A stretch of 64,000 nt of DNA, taken from Candidatus Doudnabacteria bacterium (GTDB lineage: Bacteria > Patescibacteriota > Doudnabacteria > UBA920). Numbering within the stretch: position 1 is the first letter of the stretch; each line of letters begins with the position of its first letter. The translations under genes were made by a program, and so were the position numbers. The DNA lies in contig CAWINB010000001.1 of NCBI GenBank assembly GCA_963837465.1, positions 565,646-629,645 of the forward strand, given 5' to 3'. The notes under the pieces were generated by a model. The model did not search any database and was not told where the DNA came from. It worked only from the letters and a program-made list of their open reading frames with translations. Of the stretch, positions 2,943 through 49,574 are shown piece after piece.

Positions 2943-3944
2943 TTAACTGCCTACAGTGGCAGTTTCAGCTTTTTCTAAATGCTGTTTGATATTTTCCCAA
3001 AGTTTAATAAAATATAGTCTTGCAAATTCCTGGGCGGAGTGTTTTTGATAGCTTAAGTTTTTTAATTCTTCTAAATTTTGGTTTAAGCTTTGTAGTGTAA
3101 ACTGACTTTTGAATAAAATTAACGCTAATTCAACAGTTGAATTAAGCTGCTGGTCTTGGCTCTCAAACATCATGCTCGATAACTGTTCGTCTGTTATATC
3201 CCCGCTAAAAGCATACGGCCGGCCGTATGACCCAAAAGTTAGCTGCTCTTCAATTAATCCTTTCATCCTATCGTCATTCATCCAAGGCTTAAAAACAAAG
3301 GTTAATATTGCAGCCCATGCTTCCGGTAAAGTTTCGGGAAATAATTTTTTAGCAAGGTAATCCAAGTCTGGATCGTACTCATTTTTAGAATTAACCCAAA
3401 GTTTATTTCTAAGCAAATCTGTAAATTTTTCAAGGGTTACTTTTTGTACTATACTATTTTCCTTTATCCCAGCTAAAGTCACTAACCATTCATAGGGAAA
3501 ACGTTCCCATATATTGTTGTTAAACCTATCGCGAATTTTTGTAACTTCGTCAAAAAAGTTCCGATAAAAGTCAGGTAATATTTCTTTGGCATAGTACCTA
3601 TTAATATTATTTACAATCTTTTGTTCGCCCTTAAATTTTTCTACATGTTTTACAAGCGCATCAAAAAAACCATAGACGGTTATGTTTCCTTCGGCAAATA
3701 TTCTTTTTTGGATATATTCAAAAATTCCAACAAGGATAATACGTAACTGATTGTACTCTGACCAAGTTTCTCTTTTGCTCTCATCTTTCGGATCTAAAAA
3801 CTCCATTTCTTTTTGCCAAGTATTAAAGCGCCAATCTAAAACAACTGGTAAAGCTTTATAAGCCAAAAAGAAACTAGACCTTTTTTCTAAAGAGGTCTGA
3901 AAGTCGCCTAACAATTTTGATGAAAGTTTTAAATCTTCAATCAT
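2943..3944 (-). CDS. hypothetical protein
   Basis: 333-aa ORF, 16 nt upstream of SIR2 gene, overlaps stop of next gene by 4 nt; no recognisable motif. Confidence 0.55.
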   Translation of the reverse strand: MIEDLKLSSKLLGDFQTSLEKRSSFFLAYKALPVVLDWRFNTWQKEMEFLDPKDESKRETWSEYNQLRIILVGIFEYIQKRIFAEGNITVYGFFDALVKHVEKFKGEQKIVNNINRYYAKEILPDFYRNFFDEVTKIRDRFNNNIWERFPYEWLVTLAGIKENSIVQKVTLEKFTDLLRNKLWVNSKNEYDPDLDYLAKKLFPETLPEAWAAILTFVFKPWMNDDRMKGLIEEQLTFGSYGRPYAFSGDITDEQLSSMMFESQDQQLNSTVELALILFKSQFTLQSLNQNLEELKNLSYQKHSAQEFARLYFIKLWENIKQHLEKAETATVGS

Positions 3945-6738: not shown

Positions 6739-8085
6739 ATGCAAGGATTAAGGACAAAACAGGCGGTCGGGCTGATAGACCAATCAGCCGCGCCGCCGCA
6801 AATAGCAGCAACGGTCAAATACTGCCTCTACAGCAGAAAAAGTTCCGAGGACGACGAACGCCAGGCGCTGTCCATAGACAGCCAAATTAAGGAGATGCGG
6901 GCCATGGCCCAGCGCGAGAATATGGAGGTGGTGGAGGTAAGAAAAGAAAGCCACTCTGCCAAAGCCTCGGGCATGAGGCCGGTCTACAATCAACTCTTAG
7001 TAGACATAAGAGCCGGAATGTTTAACGGAATTTTGACCTGGGCACCGGATAGGCTCTCCCGTAATGCCGGAGACTTGGGCGGGTTGGTAGATCTGATGGA
7101 TCAGGGCTACTTAAAAGAAATCCGTACCCATGGCCAAAGATTTACCAACTCACCAAACGAAAAATTCCTGCTGATGATTTTATGCTCTCAAGCCAAGCTA
7201 GAAAACGACAACCGCGGCATTAACGTAAAGCGCGGGCAGCGGGCAAGGCTGGATACTGGCCATCGGCCATGCCTGGCTCCCATAGGTTACCTGAACGAAA
7301 AAATCGGTTACCGCGGAGGGAGCAAAATCATAATAGACCCGGATAGGTCAAATTTTGTAAAACAGATGTTCGACCTAGTGGCCAACAAATTCTACACCGG
7401 CAGAGCTATATATAATTGGGCTAAAGAGGTGGGGTTTACCACCAGAAGCGGCAAGCCGGTGGCTTTAAGCAGTATTTTCCGGATGCTGGGGTCTACCTTC
7501 TACTACGGAGAGTTTGAGTGGCCGGTGGGCAGCGGGCAAATCTACCAAGGCAACTACCCAGCCTTGATAACCAAAGAGCTGTTTGAAAAGGCCAGAAAAA
7601 ATCTGATGACTGCCCCTAAGTCCAAGCCCGGAACTAAAGAGTTTAATTTTACCAAGCTGTTCTACTGCGGCTCCTGCCACAGCGGCATCACGGCCGAGGA
7701 CAAAATTAAATACCTTAAGGACGGGACGGTAAACAAATATATCTACTACCACTGCAGCCAATCCCAGGACTTGGACTGTCCCGAGCCATATATCAGGGAG
7801 GAAGACTTGCTGGAGCAGTTGATCAGTATCATAGATAAAATAGACCTGAATAAGTCCGGACTAAAGCAGCAGATAGACAGCGAGCTGGAACGGCTGCAAA
7901 GCTTTAGTAGCGGCATCTTAGGCAAGATGCTGACGGGCCAAGATCTGACCCAAAAGTTCAGCCCCAAAGAATATGCCAAGCATATTATCAGATACGGCAA
8001 CCATGATGAGAAACGCCAGCTGTTGCAATCCATCAACTCAAAAATTTACCTCAAAAACAGGAAGCTCAAGGTCGGTAAAAGATAA
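6739..8085 (+). CDS. large serine recombinase (integrase)
   Basis: N-terminal resolvase motif YSRKSSEDDERQALSIDSQ, recombinase domain, zinc-ribbon CGSCHSG; RBS aggaga upstream. Confidence 0.85.
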   Translation: MQGLRTKQAVGLIDQSAAPPQIAATVKYCLYSRKSSEDDERQALSIDSQIKEMRAMAQRENMEVVEVRKESHSAKASGMRPVYNQLLVDIRAGMFNGILTWAPDRLSRNAGDLGGLVDLMDQGYLKEIRTHGQRFTNSPNEKFLLMILCSQAKLENDNRGINVKRGQRARLDTGHRPCLAPIGYLNEKIGYRGGSKIIIDPDRSNFVKQMFDLVANKFYTGRAIYNWAKEVGFTTRSGKPVALSSIFRMLGSTFYYGEFEWPVGSGQIYQGNYPALITKELFEKARKNLMTAPKSKPGTKEFNFTKLFYCGSCHSGITAEDKIKYLKDGTVNKYIYYHCSQSQDLDCPEPYIREEDLLEQLISIIDKIDLNKSGLKQQIDSELERLQSFSSGILGKMLTGQDLTQKFSPKEYAKHIIRYGNHDEKRQLLQSINSKIYLKNRKLKVGKR

Positions 8086-8305: not shown

Positions 8306-8712
8306 TGGCTCGGGAGCTGGGATTCGAACCCAGGACCCATCGGTTACACTTAACCCTAATATTTCTACTAGGCGTGGACTATATCATCATCCCCGATGGA
8401 GGGACGCGAGGCGCTTGGGTCGATTTTATCAACCTACTCCCATAAAGGGATAGTCTCTGAACCTTCAATGGCTTTCGCCAAAGTTTGGCTGCTGATTGCC
8501 TTGTGGTATTTATATACCAGTTAGGTTTCCAGTCCGCCTTCGTCTGCCTGTAGCAGATTATAGCGGATCCGTGCTATAAAAACAAATTATAGTTACGGGC
8601 AATTCACCTCGTTTTTCAATCTCAATTACTTGAGAAAGCTGCTAATTTTCAACTTATTTTGAGACAAGTTGACGGTCTACAGCCGATTGCTCTACCGCTG
8701 AGCTACTCCCGA
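8306..8712 (-). tRNA. tRNA-Asn(GUU) interrupted by a group I intron
   Basis: Exons 8679-8712 (TCGGGAG TA GCTC AGCGGTA GAGC A ATCGG CTGT) and 8306-8346 (TAA CCGAT GGGTC CTGGG TTCGAAT CCCAG CTCCCGA G CCA) join to a canonical 76-nt cloverleaf, anticodon GTT, discriminator G. Confidence 0.7.
8347..8678 (-). ncRNA. group I intron in tRNA anticodon loop (between positions 35 and 36)
   Basis: Conserved R element GTTCAGAGACTA (8448-8463 rc) and S element GATGATATAGTCC (8373-8390 rc); internal guide TTAGCAGC pairs with ligated junction GCTGT/TAA with G.U at splice site; ends in G. Confidence 0.7.
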
Positions 8713-9003: not shown

Positions 9004-10353
9004 TTAATTATTATTGCCTAAATTATTAATATCGGTTTGGTATTTGGCTGTTGTGGCCATGACGCTATCGCCGTAAAAACTGTAGGCCGGGTTGGTGCCT
9101 CCGGAAAAATAACGCATAGCCGCGTCCCAATCTCCCTGGTAAGTCCCGTCCGCGCCGCCAGCCGTAAGCTTTATGGCCGAGGCCAAAAAAGCGTCGCGGA
9201 TGTCCCAGGGGTTGGCCGGCTTGCCGGTAATGGCCGCGACTTTGGCTTCGTAGCCCACCCAGGTGGAAGGAATAAACTGCGCGGGCCCCATAGCTCCGCC
9301 CCAACCCTCCTGCTGGCCGTTTTTATCGCGCAGCGGGCAGGACACGGGAGTAACGTTTGGATCCAAACCCAAACTGGCTGTAATTTGCAAAAATGGCTGG
9401 ATGTCCCGGCTTGGCTTCATGACTACTTTATAACTCTTGCTTGGCGGGTCGCCGGGCCGGTTGCAAGTACCCACATTCTGGCCCAGGTTGGATTCCTGGG
9501 TTAAAATCGCCAGTAAAAAAGCCGGCTGGATGCCTGTCTGGGCCGAGGCCCACTGGGCAATCTGCAAAGCCTGGCCAAAATTAATCTGGCTGCTGACCCC
9601 GAGTAGCTGGTACAGACGGCTTTGAATGGCCGCGGCCTGCGCCTTGGTATCGTTAACCACAATCTGGTAGTCCGCCTCCCGGCCTTTGGTTTGCTGGAGC
9701 AAACTATTTTGCTGGCCCACAGTATCGCTGAGCTGGCTTTGCTGGAGTATGCTGATTGACAATAAATTTTGGTCATCCTGCTGCTCGGATTGCAACTGCT
9801 GCTGCTGCTGCGCCAGTTTCTGGCTGGCTTGATTTAGCTGGCCCACCAGTCCGGTCAGTCCGGTGGAAACCTGAGCGTAATCGGCGTAAGCGGAAAAGAC
9901 ATCGGAAAGTTTCTGCTCGCTGACCACGGTGTATAAAAACGAGTAGTCGTCATTTTCATTGATGGCTCTGATTATGGAAGAAACCTGTCCCCGCAGATTT
10001 TGGACCTGGGCATTGTTCTGGTCTATGGAATTTTCGGTCGCGGTAATCTGCCCGCTTAACTGATTGACCTGCAAATTGGTCTCCTGAATTTGCAAATTCA
10101 AAATTGCCTGCTGTTTTTTTAGCTGGTTGATTTTATTTTGCAGGGTATTTTTTTGGGCCTGGGTCTGGTCCAGTTGCTGCTGATACTGCTGAATTTGTTC
10201 CTGCAGCTGCTGCAGCTGCTGCTGTAATTGCTGTTGCTGCTGGTCCTGAGCGGGCTCTGCCAGCTGGGCCAGAGCCGCGGGAAAACCCGCTGAAACAAAT
10301 ATGAGAAAAAAAACAAGCGCTGCCGAAAAACTGACTCTTTTTAGAATAGTCAT
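9004..10353 (-). CDS. secreted Q-rich coiled-coil protein with C-terminal MltB-like lytic transglycosylase domain
   Basis: signal peptide, Q-rich heptads, C-terminal LTQESNLG ... AMGPAQFIPSTW motif of family 3 lytic transglycosylases. Confidence 0.8.
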   Translation of the reverse strand: MTILKRVSFSAALVFFLIFVSAGFPAALAQLAEPAQDQQQQQLQQQLQQLQEQIQQYQQQLDQTQAQKNTLQNKINQLKKQQAILNLQIQETNLQVNQLSGQITATENSIDQNNAQVQNLRGQVSSIIRAINENDDYSFLYTVVSEQKLSDVFSAYADYAQVSTGLTGLVGQLNQASQKLAQQQQQLQSEQQDDQNLLSISILQQSQLSDTVGQQNSLLQQTKGREADYQIVVNDTKAQAAAIQSRLYQLLGVSSQINFGQALQIAQWASAQTGIQPAFLLAILTQESNLGQNVGTCNRPGDPPSKSYKVVMKPSRDIQPFLQITASLGLDPNVTPVSCPLRDKNGQQEGWGGAMGPAQFIPSTWVGYEAKVAAITGKPANPWDIRDAFLASAIKLTAGGADGTYQGDWDAAMRYFSGGTNPAYSFYGDSVMATTAKYQTDINNLGNNN

Positions 10354-10655: not shown

Positions 10656-11414
10656 TTATATCTGTATCTTGGAAAAAAGATAGCTGCCGACCGATAAAAA
10701 AACCAGGGTAATCACAGCCAGAACAGCAACGTCCGTTCCCAGGGTATAATGTCCGGAATTGGCGAGCAGTATCCGCAAAGCGTCTATGCCGTAAGACAGC
10801 GGATCTATTTTAATTATATAAGTCAGGGCCGTGGGCAAGCCGCTAAGGGGAAACAAAGCGCCGGAAAGGAAAAATAAAGGCATGACCAGAAAATTCATAA
10901 TAAGCTGGAAGCCCTGCATGTCCTGAAGCTGTGAGGCAATGGCCGTGCCCAAGGCCGTAAACAGCAGGGCTATAAGCAGCATAACTAAAACTGCCGGCAA
11001 AACCAGAGCCCAGTTATACGGCCGGAAACCGGGAACCAGCGCCAGGCAGAATACAATTATCCCCTGGATGGCGGCAATGGTGGCGCCGCCCAAAGTGCGG
11101 CCTATCATTATGTTAAAACGCGAAACGGGCGCGACCATTGTTTCCTTTAAAAAACCGAACTGGCGGTCCCAAATAACCTGGATGCCGGAAAAAATGGAAG
11201 TAAAAATCAGGCTCATGCCGATTATGCCCGGCGCCAAAAAATTGATGTAATTCCCCTGTCCGGCTTTGGCAAATACCGAACCCAAACCATAGCCCAAAGC
11301 CAGCAAAAATAACAGGGGCTGGCCCAAAGAGCCCACTATTCTGGATTTGGAACGCGAGTAACGCTTTAATTCCCTGAGCCACATTATGTAGATAGTCTTC
11401 ATGGGATTGTCCAA
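10656..11414 (-). CDS. ABC-2 type transporter permease
   Basis: six TM segments, ABC-2 family signature; likely true start at ATG 11400-11402. Confidence 0.85.
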   Translation of the reverse strand: MDNPMKTIYIMWLRELKRYSRSKSRIVGSLGQPLLFLLALGYGLGSVFAKAGQGNYINFLAPGIIGMSLIFTSIFSGIQVIWDRQFGFLKETMVAPVSRFNIMIGRTLGGATIAAIQGIIVFCLALVPGFRPYNWALVLPAVLVMLLIALLFTALGTAIASQLQDMQGFQLIMNFLVMPLFFLSGALFPLSGLPTALTYIIKIDPLSYGIDALRILLANSGHYTLGTDVAVLAVITLVFLSVGSYLFSKIQI

Positions 11415-11852
11415 GATTAAATAAGATTAAAAGATTGACCAAAATTTATTTCGTGCGCTGGTTTTTAATTGCGGAATTCTTTGACGCTACCATTATAGCG
11501 GTAACTTCATCAGCTTCCTGTAATAACTGCTTCACCTGATCGTCTTTTATAATATCTGAATCGCTTAACAATTCCAGCCAAAACGCGCTTCGTCCGCTTC
11601 TTCAATTACAATGCCAAGCTTGGCAATAAAATCTCTGGCTGATTTTGCCCTGCAGGCCGCGCGATAATTAGCCGCAACTGATGTTCCTGATCTAAATATT
11701 TTCCTGCCTATAAATTTTCCTGTCGGATGTTTTTCTAAAAATTCCGCGAGCTTCATTATTCTTAAAGCGAACTTCTTTGTCCTGTCCTGTAAATCCCTGG
11801 GCGTTATAATTCTGTCAATTTTGTTCAATACTGGTCAATCTTGGTCAATCCC
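11403..11852. mobile_element. MITE-like insertion with 16-bp terminal inverted repeats carrying a four-helix-bundle gene
   Basis: gggattgtccaagatt (11403-11418) vs reverse complement of aatcttggtcaatccc (11837-11852), 15/16 match; internal tandem sub-repeats aagatta x3 and tggtcaatc x2; sits between the two genes of an ABC transporter. Confidence 0.4.
11565..11828 (-). CDS. four-helix bundle protein (TIGR02436, 23S rRNA intervening-sequence protein family), C-terminally short
   Basis: DLQDRTKKFALRIMKLAEF ... GTSVAANYRAACRAKSARDFIAKLGIVIEEADE matches family; 87 aa vs about 115 typical. Confidence 0.7.
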   Translation of the reverse strand: MNKIDRIITPRDLQDRTKKFALRIMKLAEFLEKHPTGKFIGRKIFRSGTSVAANYRAACRAKSARDFIAKLGIVIEEADEARFGWNC

Positions 11853-12677
11853 CTATCTTCTTCCCCCGCCCGTCCGCATTTGATGCATGTTGCGCAATTG
11901 GTCGGTTGAATTGGCTTCTTCATCGCGGATTTCACTGCCGGTTAGCTTTAAGAAAGCATCTTCCAAAGAACCGGTTTGCGTTTGGGCCTGCAGTTCCGCC
12001 GAGGTACCGGTGGCGATTATTTTGCCGTGGTCTATAATGGCAATCCTTTGGGCGATGCGGCTGGCCTCTTCCATATAATGCGTGGTAAAAAATACGGTCA
12101 CGCCTTCGTCTTTGTTAAGCTTTTGCAAATAAGTCCACATGTGGTTGCGGGTCTGCGGGTCCAGGCCCAAAGTCGGCTCGTCCAAAAAAATGACTTTGGG
12201 ATGGTGCAAAAGTCCGCGCGCGATTTCCAGACGCCGTTTCATACCGCCTGAAAATTCTTTTATCAAACTGTCTTTTCTGTCCCACAGCTCCACGAACTTC
12301 ATCAGCTCTTCTATTCTTTTCCGGCGCAGGGATTTTTCCACGCCGTAAAGCACGCCGTGGAATTCCATATTTTCCCAGGCCGTAAGGTCATCATCCAAAC
12401 TGGGGTCCTGAAACACAATACCAAAGGAACGGCGCGCGGCGGCGGATTCATCTACCGGGTTATGGCCGTTCAGCCTGATGCTACCGGAACTGGGGTTAAG
12501 CAACGTGGTCAACATTTTAATGGTGGTGGACTTACCCGCTCCGTTCGGTCCCAAAAAAGCGAAAATTTCGCCTTGTTTAACGTCAAAGGAAATATTGTCA
12601 ACCGCGACAAAATCGCCGAATTTGCGGACCAGATTTTTTACTTCAATAATATTGCCTGTCCCGTTGGAAGTATCCAT
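11853..12677 (-). CDS. ABC transporter ATP-binding protein
   Basis: Walker A GPNGAGKST, signature LSGGMKRR, Walker B IFLDEPT; 27-aa C-terminal extension running into the right inverted repeat. Confidence 0.9.
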   Translation of the reverse strand: MDTSNGTGNIIEVKNLVRKFGDFVAVDNISFDVKQGEIFAFLGPNGAGKSTTIKMLTTLLNPSSGSIRLNGHNPVDESAAARRSFGIVFQDPSLDDDLTAWENMEFHGVLYGVEKSLRRKRIEELMKFVELWDRKDSLIKEFSGGMKRRLEIARGLLHHPKVIFLDEPTLGLDPQTRNHMWTYLQKLNKDEGVTVFFTTHYMEEASRIAQRIAIIDHGKIIATGTSAELQAQTQTGSLEDAFLKLTGSEIRDEEANSTDQLRNMHQMRTGGGRR

Positions 12678-12683
12678 AATCTA

Positions 12684-12850
12684 TAAGAGCCTGTTTAATA
12701 AATTGCTTTTGCAGCGAAATTTCAGGAATTGGAGCGAAAAAGTTGAAGAAAAATGAGGCGATACCAGGGAGTATCGGTGAATTTTGATGAGACTTTTGCA
12801 GCCCAATTCCTGAAATTGCAGCCAAAATGAATTTTTAAACAGGCTCTAAA
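12684..12850. repeat. nested inverted-repeat element (outer agagcctgtttaa, inner gcagcgaaatttcaggaattgg / ccaattcctgaaattgcagcc)
   Basis: 26-mer agagcctgtttaataaattgcttttg recurs exactly at 62197-62222. Confidence 0.45.
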
Positions 12851-43581: not shown

Positions 43582-43589
43582 TTATATAG

Positions 43590-43704
43590 TGGGCAGCCAC
43601 CTACTTTTGCGCATACATGCGTATGACTATCATTGGCCCGCGCGCGTTTTACTTCTTAGTTCGGGATGGGGTAAGGTAGGACCGCGCTGGAAATGCCACC
43701 CAAG
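43590..43704 (-). rRNA. rrf: 5S rRNA
   Basis: rc reads GGGTGGCATTTCCAGCGCGGTCCTACCTTACCCCATCCCGAACTAAGAAGTAAAACGCGCGCGGGCC...GTAGGTGGCTGCCCA, colinear with bacterial 5S. Confidence 0.8.
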
Positions 43705-44091: not shown

Positions 44092-44508
44092 TTTTCCGCC
44101 TTAGCTAAAGCTATGGCGGATGAAAAAGAATTAAAATTTTCGGTTGATTAGTACTGCTCGGCTGAACACATTACTGTGCTTACACCTGCAGCCTATAGAT
44201 AGCGTTTAGTTATTAGCGTTTAGCGTCCAGTATTGCTACTATTCGCTATTCACTAACCGCTATTCACTATTTTGTTACGGGGTAGTCTTCCCCGAACCTT
44301 TTGTCACCGAAGTGACAACGAAACCTAGTTTTGTAGACGGCTTCACGCTTATATGCCTTCAGCGCTTATCCTAACTAGACCTAGCTACCCCGCCATGCCC
44401 TGGACAGGACAACGGGTACACCAGAGGTCTATGCTTTTCGGTCCTCTCGTACTAAAAAAGCGACTACTCAAGTTTCGCACACCCACAGCAGATAAGGACC
44501 AACACTTT

Positions 44509-44830
44509 GTTACAAAAGTAACAAAAATTCCAAATTTCAAATTAAAAATTTCAAACTGGAAAACACTTTGCTACTTTGGCATAAATATTTCTATTATGCT
44601 CTGCATGTCGCCATGCAGTTCGGACTATATCTTCAATGCATTATCCCGGCGGTTCATCCGGTATCGTAAAAATTTAAGATTGATAATTACAAAGTCTGGC
44701 GTGTAGTCTCTACGGGTTCCCTGGGATTGTTATGTATTCCCAAAGCCTTCCCTCGGTATTGTCTCACGTTTTCTACCATGAGAGTTTCACCGATTTAGCC
44801 AAATTTACAGACAGCATGGTTATTCCTTTT
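44509..44830 (-). ncRNA. group I intron 3 at the L2593-equivalent site (after GTGAGACAGT), no ORF
   Basis: R element GTAGAGACTACAC and S element GAAGATATAGTCCGAAC; exon resumes ...GGTCCTTATCTGC. Confidence 0.65.
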
Positions 44831-44908
44831 ACTGTCTCACGACGTTTTGAACCCAGCTCGCGTACCACTTTAATATGCGAACAGCATAACCCTTGGGAGC
44901 TTCTACAC

Positions 44909-44947
<39 letters not shown>

Positions 44948-45491
44948 TCTCGTCGCTGTGGACGCTTGGAGAGGATCAGCCTGTTATCCCTAGAGTAACT
45001 TTTATCCGTTGGGCTTTGCGTCTTCCACTCGAACGCATCGGATCACTAACTTCCACTTTCGTGCCTGCGCGGGTCGCTGCCCTTGCAGTCAAGCAGGCTT
45101 ATGCGTTTGCACTACCGGCATGATTTCCATCCATACCTAGCCTACCTTAATAAACGCCTCCGTTACCATTTAGGAGGCAACCGCCCCAGTTAAACTACCC
45201 ACGAGCCACTGTCCCAAAGCAGGTTAAACTTTGGTTAGCAATTTCATCTTTACAGGGTGGTATTTCACCTGTTGCCTCCATGCCAGCTGGCGCCGGCACT
45301 TCAAAGGCTCCCACCTAGGCTAAACAATAAAAATAAAATTGCAATGACACGCTATAGTAAAGCTTCATAGGGTCTTTCCGTCTTGCTGCGGGTAGACGGC
45401 ATCTTTACCGCCATTGTAAATTCATCGGAATGTTCGTTAAGACAGTTCTCTACTCGTTATGCCATTCGTGCGGGTCGCAACTTACGCGACA

Positions 45492-45812
45492 CAAAATTGT
45501 TACTTTGCAAAACCACATCGGTTACTGATTGAGCTCTGTGGCGCGCTAATCTTTCGATTAGCATCTGCATGTCGCCATGCAGTTCAGACTATATCATCTC
45601 GCCTTGTTGGCGAGTTCCGCGTATAGTCGTTGAGGATCCGTTAAAAAAATTCAACGTTTCCTGCGGATTGTCCGGACTCCAACTCGTTTTGTTGGCATCA
45701 CTGAAGCATTTTTACTTATAAATAAGTAGCTTCAGATACTTCCGGGGTTCCCCGCATACAGCGGAATTTTCCATTCTTTAATAAATATTAAAGAATGGTC
45801 CCAGTCGTGTTT
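45492..45812 (-). ncRNA. group I intron 2 in domain IV (after GGTAGCGAAATTCCT), no ORF
   Basis: Q element AATCCGCAGG, S element GATGATATAGTCTGAAC; P7-P9 block CTGCATGGCGACATGCAG shared with intron 3. Confidence 0.65.
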
Positions 45813-45838
45813 AGGAATTTCGCTACCATAGGACAGTT

Positions 45839-46574
45839 CATTTATGTTAGCTTTATGTTTCCATAAAGATCAGACTATATCATTCCACCAGATTGATGGA
45901 TTCGGCGTTTAGTCGTTGAGGGTTTTTACTAAATGATTCTTTAAAATTTGTTAAATTATGTTTTCGTGTTCTTCCTTTTCCTTCATTTAAGCCTTCACGA
46001 AGTTTTACTATTTCTAGCAAGCCTTCGGAAGTTAAGTGTTGGTTTGCAAAAACTAGTTTTGCAATTTTAGAAAATAACGAATAGTTTCTTTTTTTAATTG
46101 CGGACAAGAAACCGAACCGGTCAAAGAAAGGGATTATTCTTTCTTTGAGTGCTGTATGATTTTGAACAATATATTGATGTACTCCATCTTTTCTATGGTC
46201 AATGCGACCACAGCCTAAATGATGCTTCAATAATGCAAGTACGGTAATATCTTTTTGAGAGACATTAAACGTTAGAATAACTTGCCATAATACTTTACTG
46301 TCAGTTCGTTTACGAAGGGAAACGTTAAAGCTTCCTTCTCCGTCTACAAAACCTGCAAAGTAATTTCCAAATTCAACAGGAATTTGTTTTAACCAATTTT
46401 GATCCATAAAGTTTCCTTTTGAATCGTTTAGTAAATCTTCCCTGCGGATTGACTGTATCTTGTAAATTTTTACTGTCATATTTCAGACGAGTATTACAAG
46501 TTTTAAGCACGTCGTTGTCCACGCGTGCACAGTTATTCCCGCAAATAGCCAAATTTTATAACTACAACATGTTC
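45839..46574 (-). mobile_element. group I intron 1 at the L1917-equivalent site (GTAACTAT|AACTGTCC) carrying a homing endonuclease gene
   Basis: Q element AATCCGCAGG at 46441-46455 rc, S-like GGAATGATATAGTCTGATC near 3' end; separated from intron 2 by a 26-nt exon (45813-45838). Confidence 0.7.
45880..46479 (-). CDS. LAGLIDADG homing endonuclease (intron-encoded)
   Basis: FAGFVDGEGSF motif; ORF lies entirely within intron 1. Confidence 0.85.
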   Translation of the reverse strand: MTVKIYKIQSIRREDLLNDSKGNFMDQNWLKQIPVEFGNYFAGFVDGEGSFNVSLRKRTDSKVLWQVILTFNVSQKDITVLALLKHHLGCGRIDHRKDGVHQYIVQNHTALKERIIPFFDRFGFLSAIKKRNYSLFSKIAKLVFANQHLTSEGLLEIVKLREGLNEGKGRTRKHNLTNFKESFSKNPQRLNAESINLVE

Positions 46575-46758
46575 ATAGTTACTGCCGGCGTTCATCAGGG
46601 CTTGGCCGAGCGGCTTGCGCCACCCGGTTTAACCTTCTGACACTGGCCAGGCATCAGCCCGTATACATCAGCTTGCGCTTTAGCACGGACCTAAGTTTTT
46701 GGTAAACAGTCGGAGGAGATCTTTCGCTGCGGGCCTAATTTATATGCTGGGTAATGAA

Positions 46759-47227
46759 GATATTTGAGACAGCAAATATCAAACTGTTTAAAAAATCAGG
46801 GTTAAGATTTTCCAAAGGAGGGTGTGTGGTACTCATCGCGGGTTCGAGCCGCAACAATTCAATCAAACGTGAGGTTAATCCGTCCGATTTATAACACACT
46901 TATCCCTCCTTTGGTACGGAGTTGACGGGTCCTAGGACGCCTAGTCGAGAAGGCAACAATGGTCTGTTGCCGACAAGACTATTTTTTCATCTACTCCGAA
47001 CTGGTGCATCGGATGGGAGTTGAACCCATACTGACACGGCTTAAGAGACCGCCGCTCTGCCCTTGAGCTACCGATGCGATTGTTTAAATCAAACAATCAA
47101 AACTTTCACCATAAAGAGTGATTACATTCTCACTTTGCCTCGCGGCTTATCTCTTTACTCAGAACGGGTATGCCTTTAACGGGCCGTATCTTTTCTAGGA
47201 GTCTTTATGGCAAACTCTAAAATTTTT
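46759..47227 (-). other. 469-nt insertion in 23S helix 63 region flanked by an 18-bp perfect inverted repeat
   Basis: arms tatatgctgggtaatgaa (46741-46758) and ttcattacccagcatata (47228-47245); flanking sequence matches E. coli 23S about 1700 and 1770. Confidence 0.5.
47002..47077 (-). tRNA. tRNA-Lys(CUU)-like cloverleaf embedded in the 23S helix-63 insertion
   Basis: GCATCGG TA GCTC AAGGGCA GAGC G GCGGT CTCTTAA GCCGT GTCAGT ATGGG TTCAACT CCCAT CCGATGC A CCA; perfect 7-bp acceptor and 5-bp T stems; anticodon stem has two G.U pairs. Confidence 0.5.
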
Positions 47228-47823
47228 TTCATTACCCAGCATATAAAAAGGTCAAGGTATATACCGAAGGTACACCTGCTTTTTTGCCGAGTTCCTTAAC
47301 GAACATTGTTCCGGACGCCTTGGGATTCTCTCCCCATCCACCTGTGTCGGTTTACGGTACGGACACTTTATAACGTGACTTCGACGCTTTTCTTGACACC
47401 TTGATTCACACTAATTCCCGTTGCCAGGTTTCTTCTTATTTTCGAGATTGTAACCGGACTTTACATCTCTCGCGAGGCAGTAAAGCCCGAAAAAGAAATT
47501 CCGGATTTGCCTGGAATTTCACCCTACGAATAAGACAACGCAAATAGTCAGATTACGCCAGTGTTATCATGATGCGTCCCGCCTAAGATAATTATAAAGT
47601 GGTTACGGAATATCAACCGTATTTTCCATCGGATGGACCCCTTGGGGCCCACTCTTAGGATCGACTAACCCAGGGACGACGATCGTTGCCCTGGAAACCT
47701 TGGATATTCGGCGAAGAGGATTCTCACCTCTATATATATTACTTATTCCAACATTCTTACTTGTACACTGTCCACGGCCGCTTACGCATACCGCTTCAAC
47801 CTGTGTACAACACTCCTCTACCA

Positions 47824-47938
47824 CTTGTGCGAAGCACAAGCATCCTTGATCCTTTATCATTTATCCTTGACCAACTGCGGAGCTGCAGCGGTAAAAGATA
47901 AAGGATTAAAGATAAAAGATACTTGTGCTTCGCACAAG
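47824..47938 (-). other. intervening sequence (IVS) in 23S helix 45
   Basis: 17-bp perfect stem cttgtgcgaagcacaag / cttgtgcttcgcacaag enclosing AT-rich hairpin at the canonical IVS site. Confidence 0.6.
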
Positions 47939-48020
47939 TCCACGTCTTCGGCACCTAGCTTAGCCCCTATATATTGTCGGCGCAGGATCGCTTGACCAGT
48001 GAGCTGTTACGCTTTCTTTA

Positions 48021-48057
<37 letters not shown>

Positions 48058-48829
48058 GGGCAATCCCACATCCTTTACACTATAGCTAGGATTTGGGGGC
48101 CTTAGACGGTGGTGTGGATTCTTCTCCATTTGTCTGGTGGAGCTTAGCCCCCACAGACTGACTGCCAGATTCTTGACCTTAAGAATTCAGAGTTTGGTTG
48201 GAGCCTACCGCTTGCGCAGCAGGTTTCCATTCAGTGCTTTACCTCTTAAGGGAACATCTGACGCTAGCCCTAAAGCTATTTCGAGGAGAACCAGCTATCA
48301 CCCGGTTCGATTGGAATTTCTCCCCTACGCACAGCTCATCCCCTATTTTTGCAGCAATAGTGGGTCCGGACCTCCCGTTACTTTTACATAACGTTCATCC
48401 TGGCCATGCGTAGCTCACGCGGGTTTCGGGTCTAACTCATGCGACATATAGGAATAGAATTATGAATATGGAATTATGAATTAGGAATACTGCGAATGCA
48501 GTCCCATAATTCTTAACTCATACTTCATAATTCTCATCCTATTACGGACTATTCATCCTCGCTTTCACTGCACTTTCGTCTTTGATAAGACTTAAGTAAG
48601 CCGCACAAGATTAACTCGTTGGATCATTCTTCAATAGGCACGCGGTTACTCACTGCTTCGCAGATGAGAATTTCAAATTAAAAATTTCAAATGTCAAATG
48701 AACTTGCAAGCTGCAGCCCTTTTGAAATTTGTAATTTGATATTTGACATTCCTAACTGCGAAGCAGTCAGAGCTTCCACTCCTTGTAAGTATACGGTTTC
48801 AGATACTATTTCATTCCCCTTCCGGGGTG

Positions 48830-48870
<41 letters not shown>

Positions 48871-49025
48871 ATATGAGTATTTAGCCTTGGATCTTAGTCG
48901 ACCCGATTTCCGACCAGATTTCTCGTGTCTGGTCGTACTCAAGTTTAAAGTTCAGGAAATTGCATGGTTTTTCGCGATACGGGACTATCACCCTCTTTGG
49001 TCCGCCGTTCCAGGCGTGTTCTGCT

Positions 49026-49235
49026 AAACAGCAAACATAATTCCCAGCCCCTTTACAGAGGGGCAATGACTTCCACTTATAACGCCATCTTAGCAACGAC
49101 TGTAATCTTTAATTCTCCGTCTTGCGACTTTGAAAACACTAAAATGGTTTGGGCTAATTATTTAGAGATTAGCGTTTAGCGAATTAGCGTTTAGTAACTA
49201 ACCGCTATTCACTATCCACTAATCACTAATAATAT
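49026..49235 (-). other. about 210-nt expansion/IVS in 23S helix 9 region
   Basis: about 60 nt in E. coli; contains tagcgtttagcg / taaccgctattcactat short repeats also present in 3'-terminal expansion 44190-44275. Confidence 0.5.
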
Positions 49236-49574
49236 ACTTCCGCGTTCGCTCGCCACTACTAACGGAATCTCTTTCGTACTCGCGTACGAATTGATTTATT
49301 TTCCACGTGCTACTGAGATGTTTCACTTCGCACGGTTCCCGCATATACCGCCCCACGGCGGCACAGCACGCGCTCTTCCAGCGCGTGGGTTTCCCCATTC
49401 GGACACCCCCGGATCAAAGCTTGTTTGCCAGCTCCCCGAGGCTTTTCGTCAGGCTACAACGTCCTTCATCGGCTCATATTACCTAGGCATCCACCGTATA
49501 CCCTTATCTATTTTAATTCTATCCGCGAATTGTCATCTGTCTTAAAAAAACAGACGCGCGATCCGCGGTTTATT

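What the first reader, a model, noticed from the sequence alone, without database searches (positions are those of the whole stretch)
11403..11852. 450-bp TIR-bounded mini-element carrying a four-helix-bundle (IVS-protein family) gene, inserted between ABC transporter genes
16-bp inverted repeats GGGATTGWCCAAGATT (15/16 match), each followed by short tandem sub-repeats, bracket a segment. Its only content is a C-terminally short member of the four-helix bundle family, a family first noticed inside 23S intervening sequences. The element sits exactly between the ATPase and permease genes of one ABC-2 transporter. The ATPase has a 27-aa C-terminal tail running into the right repeat, and the permease start codon abuts the left repeat. 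No clean target-site duplication was found.
Basis: seen in the sequence. Interest (0 to 1): 0.55.

Follow-up and report, generated by a model that had tools for sequence, protein, structure and literature searches.

The report
rRNA-type intervening element inside an operon
A 450-bp cassette built like the "intervening sequences" known from bacterial 23S rRNA genes (inverted arms of short tandem repeats around a small four-helix-bundle gene) sits here between two ABC-transporter genes, is missing from the same spot in close relatives, and is decaying in this genome.

Summary
The 16-nt inverted repeat, the sub-repeats and the flush position between the ATPase stop and the permease start are all confirmed. 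Two details are wrong. The gene is not C-terminally short: it has a -1 frameshift and its ancestral ATG is ATA. The ATPase tail is native. Orthologous operons show every state: four empty sites, an intact 120-aa gene with the same arms, and a 96-nt arms-only remnant. Relatives of the gene that are 62-83% identical carry the same 10-nt ATTGAYCA arms in three other operon junctions. The anatomy matches the Coxiella 23S rRNA intervening sequence: complementary borders, tandem repeats just before the ORF start, and a sense-strand S23p ORF of about 430 nt. In that element RNase III cuts the stem. Across 74 unrelated PF05635 genes, 74% have such upstream arrays and 50% have inverted arms. My best reading is an IVS-type selfish cassette living in an mRNA operon. 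Its arms probably form an RNA panhandle. How it moves is unknown. I rate it a new variant of a known kind, with interest 0.6.

The parts
11808..11852 (-). 5' arm. On the gene strand it reads GGGATTGACCAA GATTGACCAG TATTGAACAA AATTGACAGA ATT: four to five 10-nt units with an ATTGAYCA core, ending directly at the ancestral start codon. The outermost 16 nt (11837-11852) are one copy of the terminal inverted repeat.
   Evidence: The same units lie upstream of related genes in L201, L204, L213 and L223. The tandem score is 22/30 at period 10.
11446..11807 (-). Four-helix-bundle (PF05635 / TIGR02436, 'S23p') gene, inactivated here. The ancestral ATG is ATA (11805-11807). There is a -1 frameshift in the T-run at 11580-11583. 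The stop codon TAA is at 11446-11448.
   Evidence: The repaired protein scores 59 bits on PF05635 and 83 bits on TIGR02436. It is 82% identical to intact 120-aa proteins. dN/dS against relatives is 0.04-0.09.
11403..11445 (-). 3' arm. On the gene strand it reads ATTTTGGTCAATCTTTTAATCTTATTTAATCTTGGACAATCCC: inverted copies of the same units, ending directly at the permease ATG. The outermost 16 nt (11403-11418) are the other copy of the terminal inverted repeat.
   Evidence: Both the MFE and the centroid RNA fold pair this arm with the 5' arm.
11853..12677 (-). ABC transporter ATPase (274 aa), the host gene upstream of the insert. Its C-terminal tail and stop codon are native.
10656..11402 (-). 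ABC-2 permease (248 aa), the host gene downstream of the insert. Its ATG abuts the 3' arm.

Best explanation
This is a decaying copy of an IVS-type cassette. Elements of this build are known from 23S rRNA genes, where they are called intervening sequences and carry an 'S23p' four-helix-bundle ORF. Here the cassette is lodged in a protein-coding operon.

Shown:
- The unit consists of a 5' array of short tandem repeats that ends at the ORF start, a roughly 120-aa PF05635 gene in the sense orientation of the host transcript, and a 3' array that is the inverted copy of the 5' one.
- It occupies the stop/start junction of the ABC-2 ATPase and permease genes.
- That junction is empty in several close relatives. 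One relative carries an intact copy and one carries only the arms.
- Sister copies with the same arm units sit at other stop/start junctions between co-directional genes.

Inferred:
- The cassette has no promoter of its own and is transcribed as part of the operon mRNA.
- Its two arms pair into a long panhandle with the ORF in the loop, as in rRNA IVSs.
- RNase III probably cuts that stem. This would release the cassette RNA and split the ATPase and permease messages.
- Because the insert lies exactly between a stop and a start codon, both host ORFs stay intact and the insertion is tolerated.
- The protein is under purifying selection in the family, so it does something for the element. It may bind the repeated arm units. 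In this genome it has just been lost.

The DNA-level mechanism of insertion is unknown.
For: Anatomy:
- The inverted arms, tandem units and position flush with the stop and start codons are confirmed.

Insertion polymorphism at the orthologous site:
- Empty junctions occur in L205, L207, L209 and L212.
- An intact copy occurs in L201-L203.
- A 96-nt arms-only remnant occurs in L211.
- Filled sites are not monophyletic on a rough host-gene tree.

Same module elsewhere:
- Copies lie at enolase|2-hydroxyacid dehydrogenase (L204), PilB|PilC (L213) and unknown|DUF2157 (L223, and P0001). All are co-directional with their neighbours and carry ATTGAYCA arms.
- Clusters of these units occur only beside the gene in all held loci and in the 64-kb window.
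- The element tree does not follow the sites. P0001 and P0022 share a site at 70% identity, while P0001 is 83% identical to the window copy.

RNA:
- The MFE and centroid folds pair the two arms, with z = -3.0 for the window and -2.5 for L204.
- RNAalifold keeps a long-range arm-arm helix in five elements.

Match to the rRNA IVS:
- The Coxiella IVS is 428 nt and is bordered by complementary sequences.
- RNase III cuts that stem.
- Three tandem heptamers lie directly upstream of the S23p ATG, and the ORF is in sense orientation and decaying (PMC4990558).

Generality:
- Of 74 diverse PF05635 genes, 74% exceed the control 95th percentile for an upstream tandem array and 50% do so for up/down complementarity. 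The period is mostly 7.
- In 42 of 54 loci the best tandem array in the whole locus is next to the gene.
- The upstream neighbour is co-directional in 60 of 69 cases, with a median gap of 45 nt.
- The same flanks are seen in five plasmid records, four of them from cultured strains (Nostoc, Gloeocapsa, Treponema, Bernardetia) and one from an enrichment-derived isolate, Ca. Chlorohelix.

Protein constraint:
- dN/dS is 0.04-0.09 with dS saturated.
Against: - No experiment or transcript data exist for this element. RNase III cleavage is extrapolated from rRNA IVSs.
- Covariation within the subfamily is weak: most arm pairs are invariant and only one is compensatory. The complementarity could simply reflect the same protein-binding unit placed in inverted orientation.
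- The inner units of the 3' arm are degenerate (GATTTAAA instead of GATTGACC), so only the outer 16 bp pair well.
- The arms-only hairpin in L211 is not unusually stable (z = -1.75).
- The arm unit is conserved although synonymous sites are saturated. This argues for sequence-specific recognition, not merely pairing.
- Half of the family members lack a 3' arm.
- There is no target duplication, no recombinase and no second copy in the window, so mobility is inferred only from distribution.
- The frameshift sits in a homopolymer and could be an assembly error. The ATG-to-ATA change is less likely to be one.
Confidence: 0.6

Rival explanations
1. It is a DNA-level transposon-like element. The repeated units at both ends are binding sites for the element's own pentameric four-helix-bundle protein, which brings the ends together. 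This would resemble the subterminal repeats of Mu, Tn7 or En/Spm-type elements. A host nuclease or recombinase would then do the cutting, and RNA pairing of the arms would be incidental.
For: - The arm unit ATTGAYCA is conserved across four insertion contexts although synonymous sites in the gene are saturated.
- Several units occur per end, in inverted orientation.
- A GATT/ATTG core is enriched three- to four-fold in the fraction of loci holding it (seven- to eight-fold in mean copies per array) in upstream arrays across the whole family.
- The protein is under strong purifying selection.
- Covariation for an RNA helix is weak.
Against: - The period is 7, 8, 9 or 10 nt in different subfamilies. 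That is hard to reconcile with same-face binding on B-DNA.
- No nucleic-acid binding specificity is known for this family.
- There is no target-site duplication.
- About half of the family members have only the upstream array.
- My test for co-variation between protein and repeat unit was inconclusive.
- In rRNA IVSs the inverted borders have a demonstrated RNA role (PMC4990558).
Confidence: 0.2
2. It is not mobile. On this view it is a resident small gene of the ABC operon with a regulatory palindrome, such as an attenuator or a processing site, inherited vertically and lost in some lineages.
For: - The same gene sits at the same site in a relative whose permease is 83% identical.
- Only one copy occurs in the 64-kb window.
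- There is no transposase and no target duplication.
Against: - Four orthologous operons lack it cleanly.
- Filled sites are not monophyletic on the host tree.
- The same gene-plus-arms module sits in three unrelated operons.
- The element phylogeny conflicts with site identity.
- The gene is decaying here while the transporter genes remain intact.
Confidence: 0.06
3. It is an orphan Avd gene, left over from a diversity-generating retroelement.
For: PF05635 proteins resemble the DGR accessory protein Avd (PMC10053308). My own knowledge is that DGRs are common in Patescibacteria.
Against: - The immediate neighbours are the ABC ATPase and permease. No reverse transcriptase and no template/variable repeat pair adjoins the gene.
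- The flanks are short tandem-unit arms, not TR/VR repeats.
- There is no PADLOC or PHROGs match.
- The same module recurs in housekeeping operons.
Confidence: 0.03

Closest known systems
ORF-bearing intervening sequences (IVS) of 23S rRNA genes, as in Coxiella burnetii helix 45 and Leptospira
   Same: - Similar size (428 nt in Coxiella, 450 nt here).
- Complementary borders that can form a stem with the ORF in the loop.
- Tandem short direct repeats immediately upstream of the ORF start (GACAGAT x3 in Coxiella, four 10-nt units here).
- An S23p / PF05635 ORF in the sense of the host transcript.
- An ORF that is prone to decay.
- Sporadic distribution suggesting horizontal spread (PMC4990558; this work).
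   Different: - The host transcript is an mRNA, at a stop/start junction of an ABC-2 operon, not an rRNA helix. The window's own 23S gene carries no such ORF.
- The repeat period is 10 nt rather than 7.
- RNase III excision is shown for rRNA IVSs and only inferred here. In an mRNA it would split a polycistronic message rather than fragment a ribosome.
MITEs and small TIR-bounded transposons
   Same: Terminal inverted repeats, small size, intergenic location, presence/absence polymorphism, and an ORF-less arms-only derivative (L211).
   Different: - No target-site duplication.
- No transposase, and no known autonomous partner.
- The ends are arrays of tandem units.
- The element carries a conserved non-transposase gene under purifying selection.
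- No second copy occurs in 64 kb.
Short tandemly repeated heptamer arrays (cyanobacterial STRR; GGGAATC arrays of Xanthomonas)
   Same: - 7-nt tandem units in intergenic regions, often as convergent pairs able to form hairpins, with unknown function (PMC4692102).
- The flanks of PF05635 genes in Nostoc and Gloeocapsa are exactly such arrays.
   Different: Those arrays have been described without any link to PF05635 genes: that paper contains no mention of S23p, IVS or helix bundle. Here the arrays are part of a gene cassette, and in this subfamily the unit is 10 nt.
Avd, the accessory protein of diversity-generating retroelements
   Same: A homologous four-helix-bundle fold, reported in the literature to form pentamers (PMC10053308; PMC4990558).
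   Different: No reverse transcriptase or template/variable repeats adjoin the gene. The gene travels with its own inverted arms.

Membership tests
PF05635 / TIGR02436 four-helix-bundle protein (23S rRNA IVS protein, S23p) | Score above the curated HMM cut-off over the full domain | tested here: met
   The frameshift-repaired protein scores 59.0 bits on PF05635 (cut-off 33.8), covering profile positions 7-104 of 106. It scores 83.2 bits on TIGR02436 (cut-off 24). As encoded, the 87-aa ORF scores 31.4 bits, just below the cut-off.
PF05635 / TIGR02436 four-helix-bundle protein (23S rRNA IVS protein, S23p) | Sequence relative of a family member with a solved structure | tested here: met
   The 82%-identical relative P0002 matches PDB 2rld chain A (121 aa) at E = 4.6e-21 over residues 5-109. 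I predicted no structure for the window protein.
PF05635 / TIGR02436 four-helix-bundle protein (23S rRNA IVS protein, S23p) | Intact, translatable gene | tested here: not met
   There is a -1 frameshift at 11580-11583, and the ancestral ATG is ATA at 11805-11807. An assembly error cannot be excluded for the frameshift.
Bacterial rRNA intervening sequence (IVS) element | Located within a 23S (helix 9, 25 or 45) or 16S rRNA gene and transcribed as part of the pre-rRNA | tested here: not met
   The element lies between an ABC ATPase gene and a permease gene. The window's 23S gene is at 44127-49518 and holds no PF05635 ORF.
Bacterial rRNA intervening sequence (IVS) element | Bordered by complementary sequences that form a stem enclosing the element | tested here: met
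   The outer repeat matches 15/16 and the arms extend to 29 nt. The MFE and centroid folds pair the arms, with z = -3.0.
Bacterial rRNA intervening sequence (IVS) element | S23p ORF on the sense strand of the host transcript, preceded by tandem short direct repeats | tested here: met
   The gene is on the same strand as the operon, and four 10-nt units end at the start codon. Compare the Coxiella heptamers.
Bacterial rRNA intervening sequence (IVS) element | Excised from the transcript by RNase III without religation | not testable with these tools
   This needs RNA mapping. No rnc gene lies within the 64-kb window, which says nothing about the rest of the genome.
Bacterial rRNA intervening sequence (IVS) element | Sporadic presence among close relatives | tested here: met
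   Empty, intact, pseudogene and arms-only states occur at the same site. Filled sites are not monophyletic.
MITE / classical TIR transposon | Target-site duplication flanking the TIRs | tested here: not met
   Comparing filled and empty junctions shows no duplicated bases.
MITE / classical TIR transposon | Transposase, or an autonomous partner with the same ends | tested here: not met
   The only ORF is the PF05635 gene. The same holds for all related cassettes examined.
MITE / classical TIR transposon | Multiple dispersed copies in the genome | tested here: inconclusive
   There is no second copy in the 64-kb window. The rest of the genome was not available: the exact-protein look-up of P0121 found no record, and the 16-mer scan of genome contigs returned only chance hits.
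DGR accessory gene (avd) | Adjacent reverse transcriptase and template/variable repeat pair | tested here: not met
   The neighbours are the ABC ATPase and permease. There is no PADLOC hit. The rest of the window was not scanned for a reverse transcriptase.

The most novel reading that the evidence does not exclude
PF05635 four-helix-bundle genes together with their flanking inverted arrays of short tandem units form one very widespread, autonomous class of mini mobile cassettes. The classical rRNA intervening sequences would then be only the subset that landed in rRNA. The pentameric protein would recognise the repeated units of its own arms. Decayed or ORF-less copies would seed many of the enigmatic heptamer (STRR-type) arrays and convergent array pairs in bacterial genomes.
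Probability: 0.25. Interest if true: 0.8.

Novelty: new variant of a known kind. Interest (0 to 1): 0.6.

Why it matters
Intervening sequences in bacterial rRNA have been known for over 30 years as probable selfish elements. How they move, and what their conserved ORF does, is still unknown (PMC4990558).

If the same cassette routinely lives in ordinary operons, with clean empty sites, intact and decayed copies and arms-only derivatives, the question becomes tractable. The ends are defined to the base. Insertion sites can be compared. The protein and its putative binding units can be tested directly.

It would also give a concrete origin for part of the unexplained heptamer arrays in cyanobacteria, Xanthomonas and others. 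It would explain why 'four helix bundle protein' genes turn up between co-directional genes in cas, restriction and housekeeping operons (PMC3936711; PMC5524665).

For genome annotation, it flags a class of inserts that may split polycistronic mRNAs.

Tried and rejected
- **Genome-contig scan with the 16-mer repeat.** It gave 120 or more single hits in unrelated phyla with no PF05635 gene nearby.
- **Finding the source genome.** The exact permease protein P0121 is listed on a 699,532-bp contig, but the look-up found no record. Other copies in the same genome therefore could not be searched.
- **Promoter inside the 5' arm.** The one sigma-70-like match (TTGACC-18-CAGAAT) would start transcription downstream of the ancestral start codon. 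I rejected it as a promoter for the gene.
- **Split Shine-Dalgarno idea.** I considered that the stem might bring an SD at the ATPase end next to the permease AUG. I dropped it because the start regions I read in this stretch (ATPase, the 449-aa gene, the four-helix-bundle gene) show no obvious SD (reading).
- **Co-variation of protein clade with repeat unit.** The test was inconclusive (rho 0.08). The k-mer measure is confounded by unit phase and by arrays in the opposite orientation.
- **Covariation for the arm-arm helix within the subfamily.** Most pairs are invariant and one is compensatory, which is too weak to prove an RNA structure.
- **Phage and defence libraries.** PHROGs and PADLOC gave no match.
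- **Other filings considered.** I rejected integron cassette, REP/RAYT, IS200/IS605 and DGR remnant on anatomy: no attC or integrase, no palindromic REP units, no TnpA, and no reverse transcriptase next to the gene.
- **RNase III gene in the window.** None was found, which says nothing about the rest of the genome.
Full report
**What is at the coordinates**

All genes here are on the minus strand. An ABC ATPase gene (11853-12677) is followed by the 450-bp segment 11403-11852 and then by an ABC-2 permease gene (10656-11402).

The segment begins one base after the ATPase stop codon (TAG, 11853-11855). It ends one base before the permease ATG (11400-11402).

Its ends are GGGATTGACCAAGATT (gene strand, 11852-11837) and the inverted GGGATTGTCCAAGATT (11403-11418), a 15/16 match. 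The repeat finder extends the arms to 29 nt at 76% complementarity.

The 5' arm reads GGGATTGACCAA GATTGACCAG TATTGAACAA AATTGACAGA ATT. It has a 10-nt period and runs right up to the gene's ancestral start codon. The 3' arm is made of inverted, partly degenerate copies of the same unit.

With the metric I later applied to many loci, the arm complementarity scores 29 against a control 95th percentile of 17. The tandem score is 22 of 30 at period 10.

**The gene**

In fact it is split into 87-aa and 41-aa ORFs by a -1 frameshift in a run of T at 11580-11583. The codon that is ATG in every relative is ATA here, at 11805-11807.

Adding one T restores a full-length protein:
- It scores 59 bits on PF05635 (cut-off 33.8) and 83 bits on TIGR02436 (cut-off 24).
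- It is up to 82% identical to many intact 120-aa proteins from Patescibacteria.
- A close relative matches the solved structure 2rld at E = 4.6e-21.

Between lineages dN/dS is 0.04-0.09 with saturated dS. The family protein is therefore under purifying selection, and the inactivation here is recent, or partly an assembly error.

**The ATPase tail**

The last residues...STDQLRNMHQMRTGGGRR*, are conserved in orthologues that have no insert. The tail is native and stops before the repeat.

**Is it an insertion?**

I searched with the permease and looked at the encoding contigs of its relatives.

| Locus | Permease identity to the window | State of the ATPase/permease junction |
|---|---|---|
| L205 | 87% | Empty: AGATAA-ATTT-ATG |
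| L207 | 83% | Empty: AGATAATG (stop and start overlap) |
| L209 | 83% | Empty: AGGTAA-AAT-ATG |
| L212 | 83% | Empty: TAA, 19 nt, ATG |
| L201-L203 | 83% (L201) | Intact 120-aa gene. The 5' arm is TAATTGACCACGATTGACCAGTATTGATCAAAATTGACAAGATT; the 3' arm is shortened |
| L211 | 86% | 96-nt insert made of the two arms with the ORF deleted |

The empty junctions come, the intact copy, and the arms-only remnant.

No duplicated target bases are visible at any filled site.

On a rough neighbour-joining tree of ATPase plus permease, the window groups with the empty L209 and L205. L201 and L211 group with the empty L207 (no bootstrap). The pattern therefore needs either repeated gain at this junction or several precise losses.

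**The same module elsewhere**

Close relatives of the gene sit in other operon junctions, always co-directional and tightly packed:
- between enolase and a 2-hydroxyacid dehydrogenase (L204; 79% identical to the repaired window protein by BLASTP, 81% in my MAFFT alignment);
- between PilB and PilC (L213; 63% by BLASTP, 62% by MAFFT);
- between an unknown 171-177-aa gene and a DUF2157 gene (L223, 70% by BLASTP, 72% by MAFFT; also P0001, 82% by BLASTP, 83% by MAFFT).

In each locus for which DNA was held (P0001's contig had none), the flanks are the same 10-nt ATTGAYCA units: direct upstream and ending at the ATG, inverted downstream and ending at the next gene's ATG. Clusters of that unit occur nowhere else in those loci or in the 64-kb window.

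The element tree does not follow the sites. P0001 and P0022 share a site but are 70% identical, whereas P0001 is 83% identical to the window copy at a different site.

The first unit, TAATTGA, supplies stop codons in two frames. In L204 and L201 the upstream gene ends inside it.

**What known thing has this anatomy?**

The Coxiella burnetii intervening sequence shares these features (PMC4990558):
- It is a 428-nt element in helix 45 of 23S rRNA.
[quoted passage not shown] - The ORF is in the sense of the host transcript and is decaying.

That paper also recalls the old proposal (Ralph and McClelland 1993) that the IVS was a mobile element whose ORF served its mobility.

The window element matches every structural point. 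It fails only the location: it sits in an mRNA operon, and the window's own 23S gene (44127-49518) has no such ORF.

RNA folding of the window element and of L204 pairs the two arms in both the MFE and the centroid structure, with z = -3.0 and -2.5. RNAalifold on five elements keeps a long-range arm-arm helix, but with only one compensatory pair.

**Is this general for the family?**

I analysed 74 non-redundant PF05635 genes from unrelated metagenomes, 48-61% identical to the query.
- 74% exceed the control 95th percentile for a tandem array just upstream, and 50% do so for complementarity between the upstream and downstream flanks. The period is mostly 7, sometimes 8-10.
- In 42 of 54 loci of at least 3 kb, the strongest tandem array of the whole locus lies next to the gene. 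Only about 300 nt were searched there, against about 5,300 nt elsewhere.
- By crude ORF calling, the upstream neighbour is co-directional in 60 of 69 cases and the downstream neighbour in 43 of 63. The median gap from the upstream stop to the gene's start is 45 nt, which is just the array.
- The unit sequences differ between subfamilies, but GATT or ATTG is present in 62-65% of upstream arrays against 14-20% of controls. The arrays are C-poor.

Five plasmid records show the same flanks; four come from cultured strains and one from an enrichment-derived isolate (Ca. Chlorohelix):
- Nostoc punctiforme has GTCGGAG/GTCGGAA heptamers upstream and their complement downstream.
- Gloeocapsa PCC 7428 has TTTAGAT upstream and ATCTAAA downstream.
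- Ca. Chlorohelix, Treponema saccharophilum and Bernardetia also carry arrays. In Bernardetia the two arrays are direct rather than inverted.

I found no paper in the searchable library that links PF05635 genes outside rRNA to such arrays. A study of GGGAATC heptamer arrays in Xanthomonas reports 70-75 convergent array pairs of unknown function and does not mention this gene family (PMC4692102). The library lacks most subscription journals, so this absence is not proof.

**How it most likely works**

Shown:
- The cassette structure.
- Its exact placement between a stop and a start codon.
- The insertion polymorphism at the orthologous site.
- The recurrence of the module in other operons.
- Purifying selection on the protein.
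- The decay of the window copy.

Inferred:
- The cassette has no usable promoter and is read through from the host operon. The orientation bias fits this.
- The arms pair in the transcript. By analogy with rRNA IVSs, RNase III cuts the stem.

An alternative or additional role is that the repeated units are binding sites for the element's own ring-forming protein. The conservation of the unit despite saturated synonymous sites favours this, while the variable period argues against it. My direct test was inconclusive.

The DNA mechanism of insertion is unknown. There is no transposase, no target duplication, and no second copy within 64 kb.

**Verdict**

It is best described as an IVS-type four-helix-bundle cassette in a non-rRNA host site, here as a fresh pseudogene. 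I rate it a new variant of a known kind. The single locus is modest in itself. The family-wide pattern it exposes is what makes it interesting.

Noticed in passing
window 12686-12847: A roughly 160-nt near-perfect hairpin lies directly upstream of the ATPase start codon (12677). It is made of nested inverted repeats 12686-12715/12818-12847 and 12718-12764/12771-12817. The RNA fold is -62.5 kcal/mol with z = -10.1, and there is no Rfam match. In the orthologues the gap before the ATPase gene is 25 nt (L205), 53 nt (L209) and 233 nt (L207), so at least in L205 and L209 there is no room for it; it may be a second, unrelated palindromic insert at the 5' end of the same operon.
   Followed up: partly
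window 44127-49518: The 23S rRNA gene spans 5.4 kb against a 2.9-kb model. It holds two group I introns (44601-44859 and 45565-45799) and a 199-aa ORF with a LAGLIDADG-like motif (45880-46479). ARAGORN and Rfam both call a tRNA-Lys(CTT) at 47002-47077 inside the 23S span. The 5S gene is at 43588-43703. This is typical of CPR rRNA genes except for the tRNA call, which I did not examine.
   Followed up: partly
window 8355-8661: A third group I intron match (53 bits, minus strand) lies outside any rRNA or tRNA gene. It sits in an ORF-poor stretch between a 448-aa ORF (6739-8085, not scanned; I read it as serine-recombinase-like by eye) and the 449-aa Q-rich protein gene (9004-10353). Its host gene is not identified.
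   Followed up: no
L211 1428-1523: A 96-nt arms-only derivative of the cassette lies at the same ATPase/permease junction. The start codon is kept and the ORF is deleted. It is a hairpin-forming, MITE-like remnant.
   Followed up: yes
L234 1201-1569 (Gloeocapsa PCC 7428 plasmid) and L237 1201-1569 (Ca. Chlorohelix plasmid): In a cyanobacterium and a Chloroflexota, a PF05635 cassette sits at the same junction, between a DUF1156 protein gene and a Swt1-family HEPN protein gene. That gene pair looks to me like a defence operon (my reading, not tested). Published work also found such genes between cmr3 and cmr2 in cas loci (PMC3936711).
   Followed up: no
L201 about 3300-3420, compared with L202 and L203: The ATPase gene upstream of the intact cassette in L201 has an internal deletion that removes most of the conserved C-terminal tail and shifts the frame. 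It then terminates on the TGA inside the first arm unit (TAATTGA). L202 and L203 keep the full tail and end on the TAA of that unit.
   Followed up: partly
L125, L161, L169, L195, L196, L198: Several metagenomic loci carry two or three PF05635 cassettes within a few kilobases, each with its own arrays. In 18 of 54 loci another strong tandem array lies away from any PF05635 gene. These may be ORF-less remnants.
   Followed up: no
L212 2501-2519: The empty ATPase/permease junction in this relative is a 19-nt A/T palindrome (AAATTTTTTTAAAAAAATT). It could be a footprint or just a spacer.
   Followed up: no
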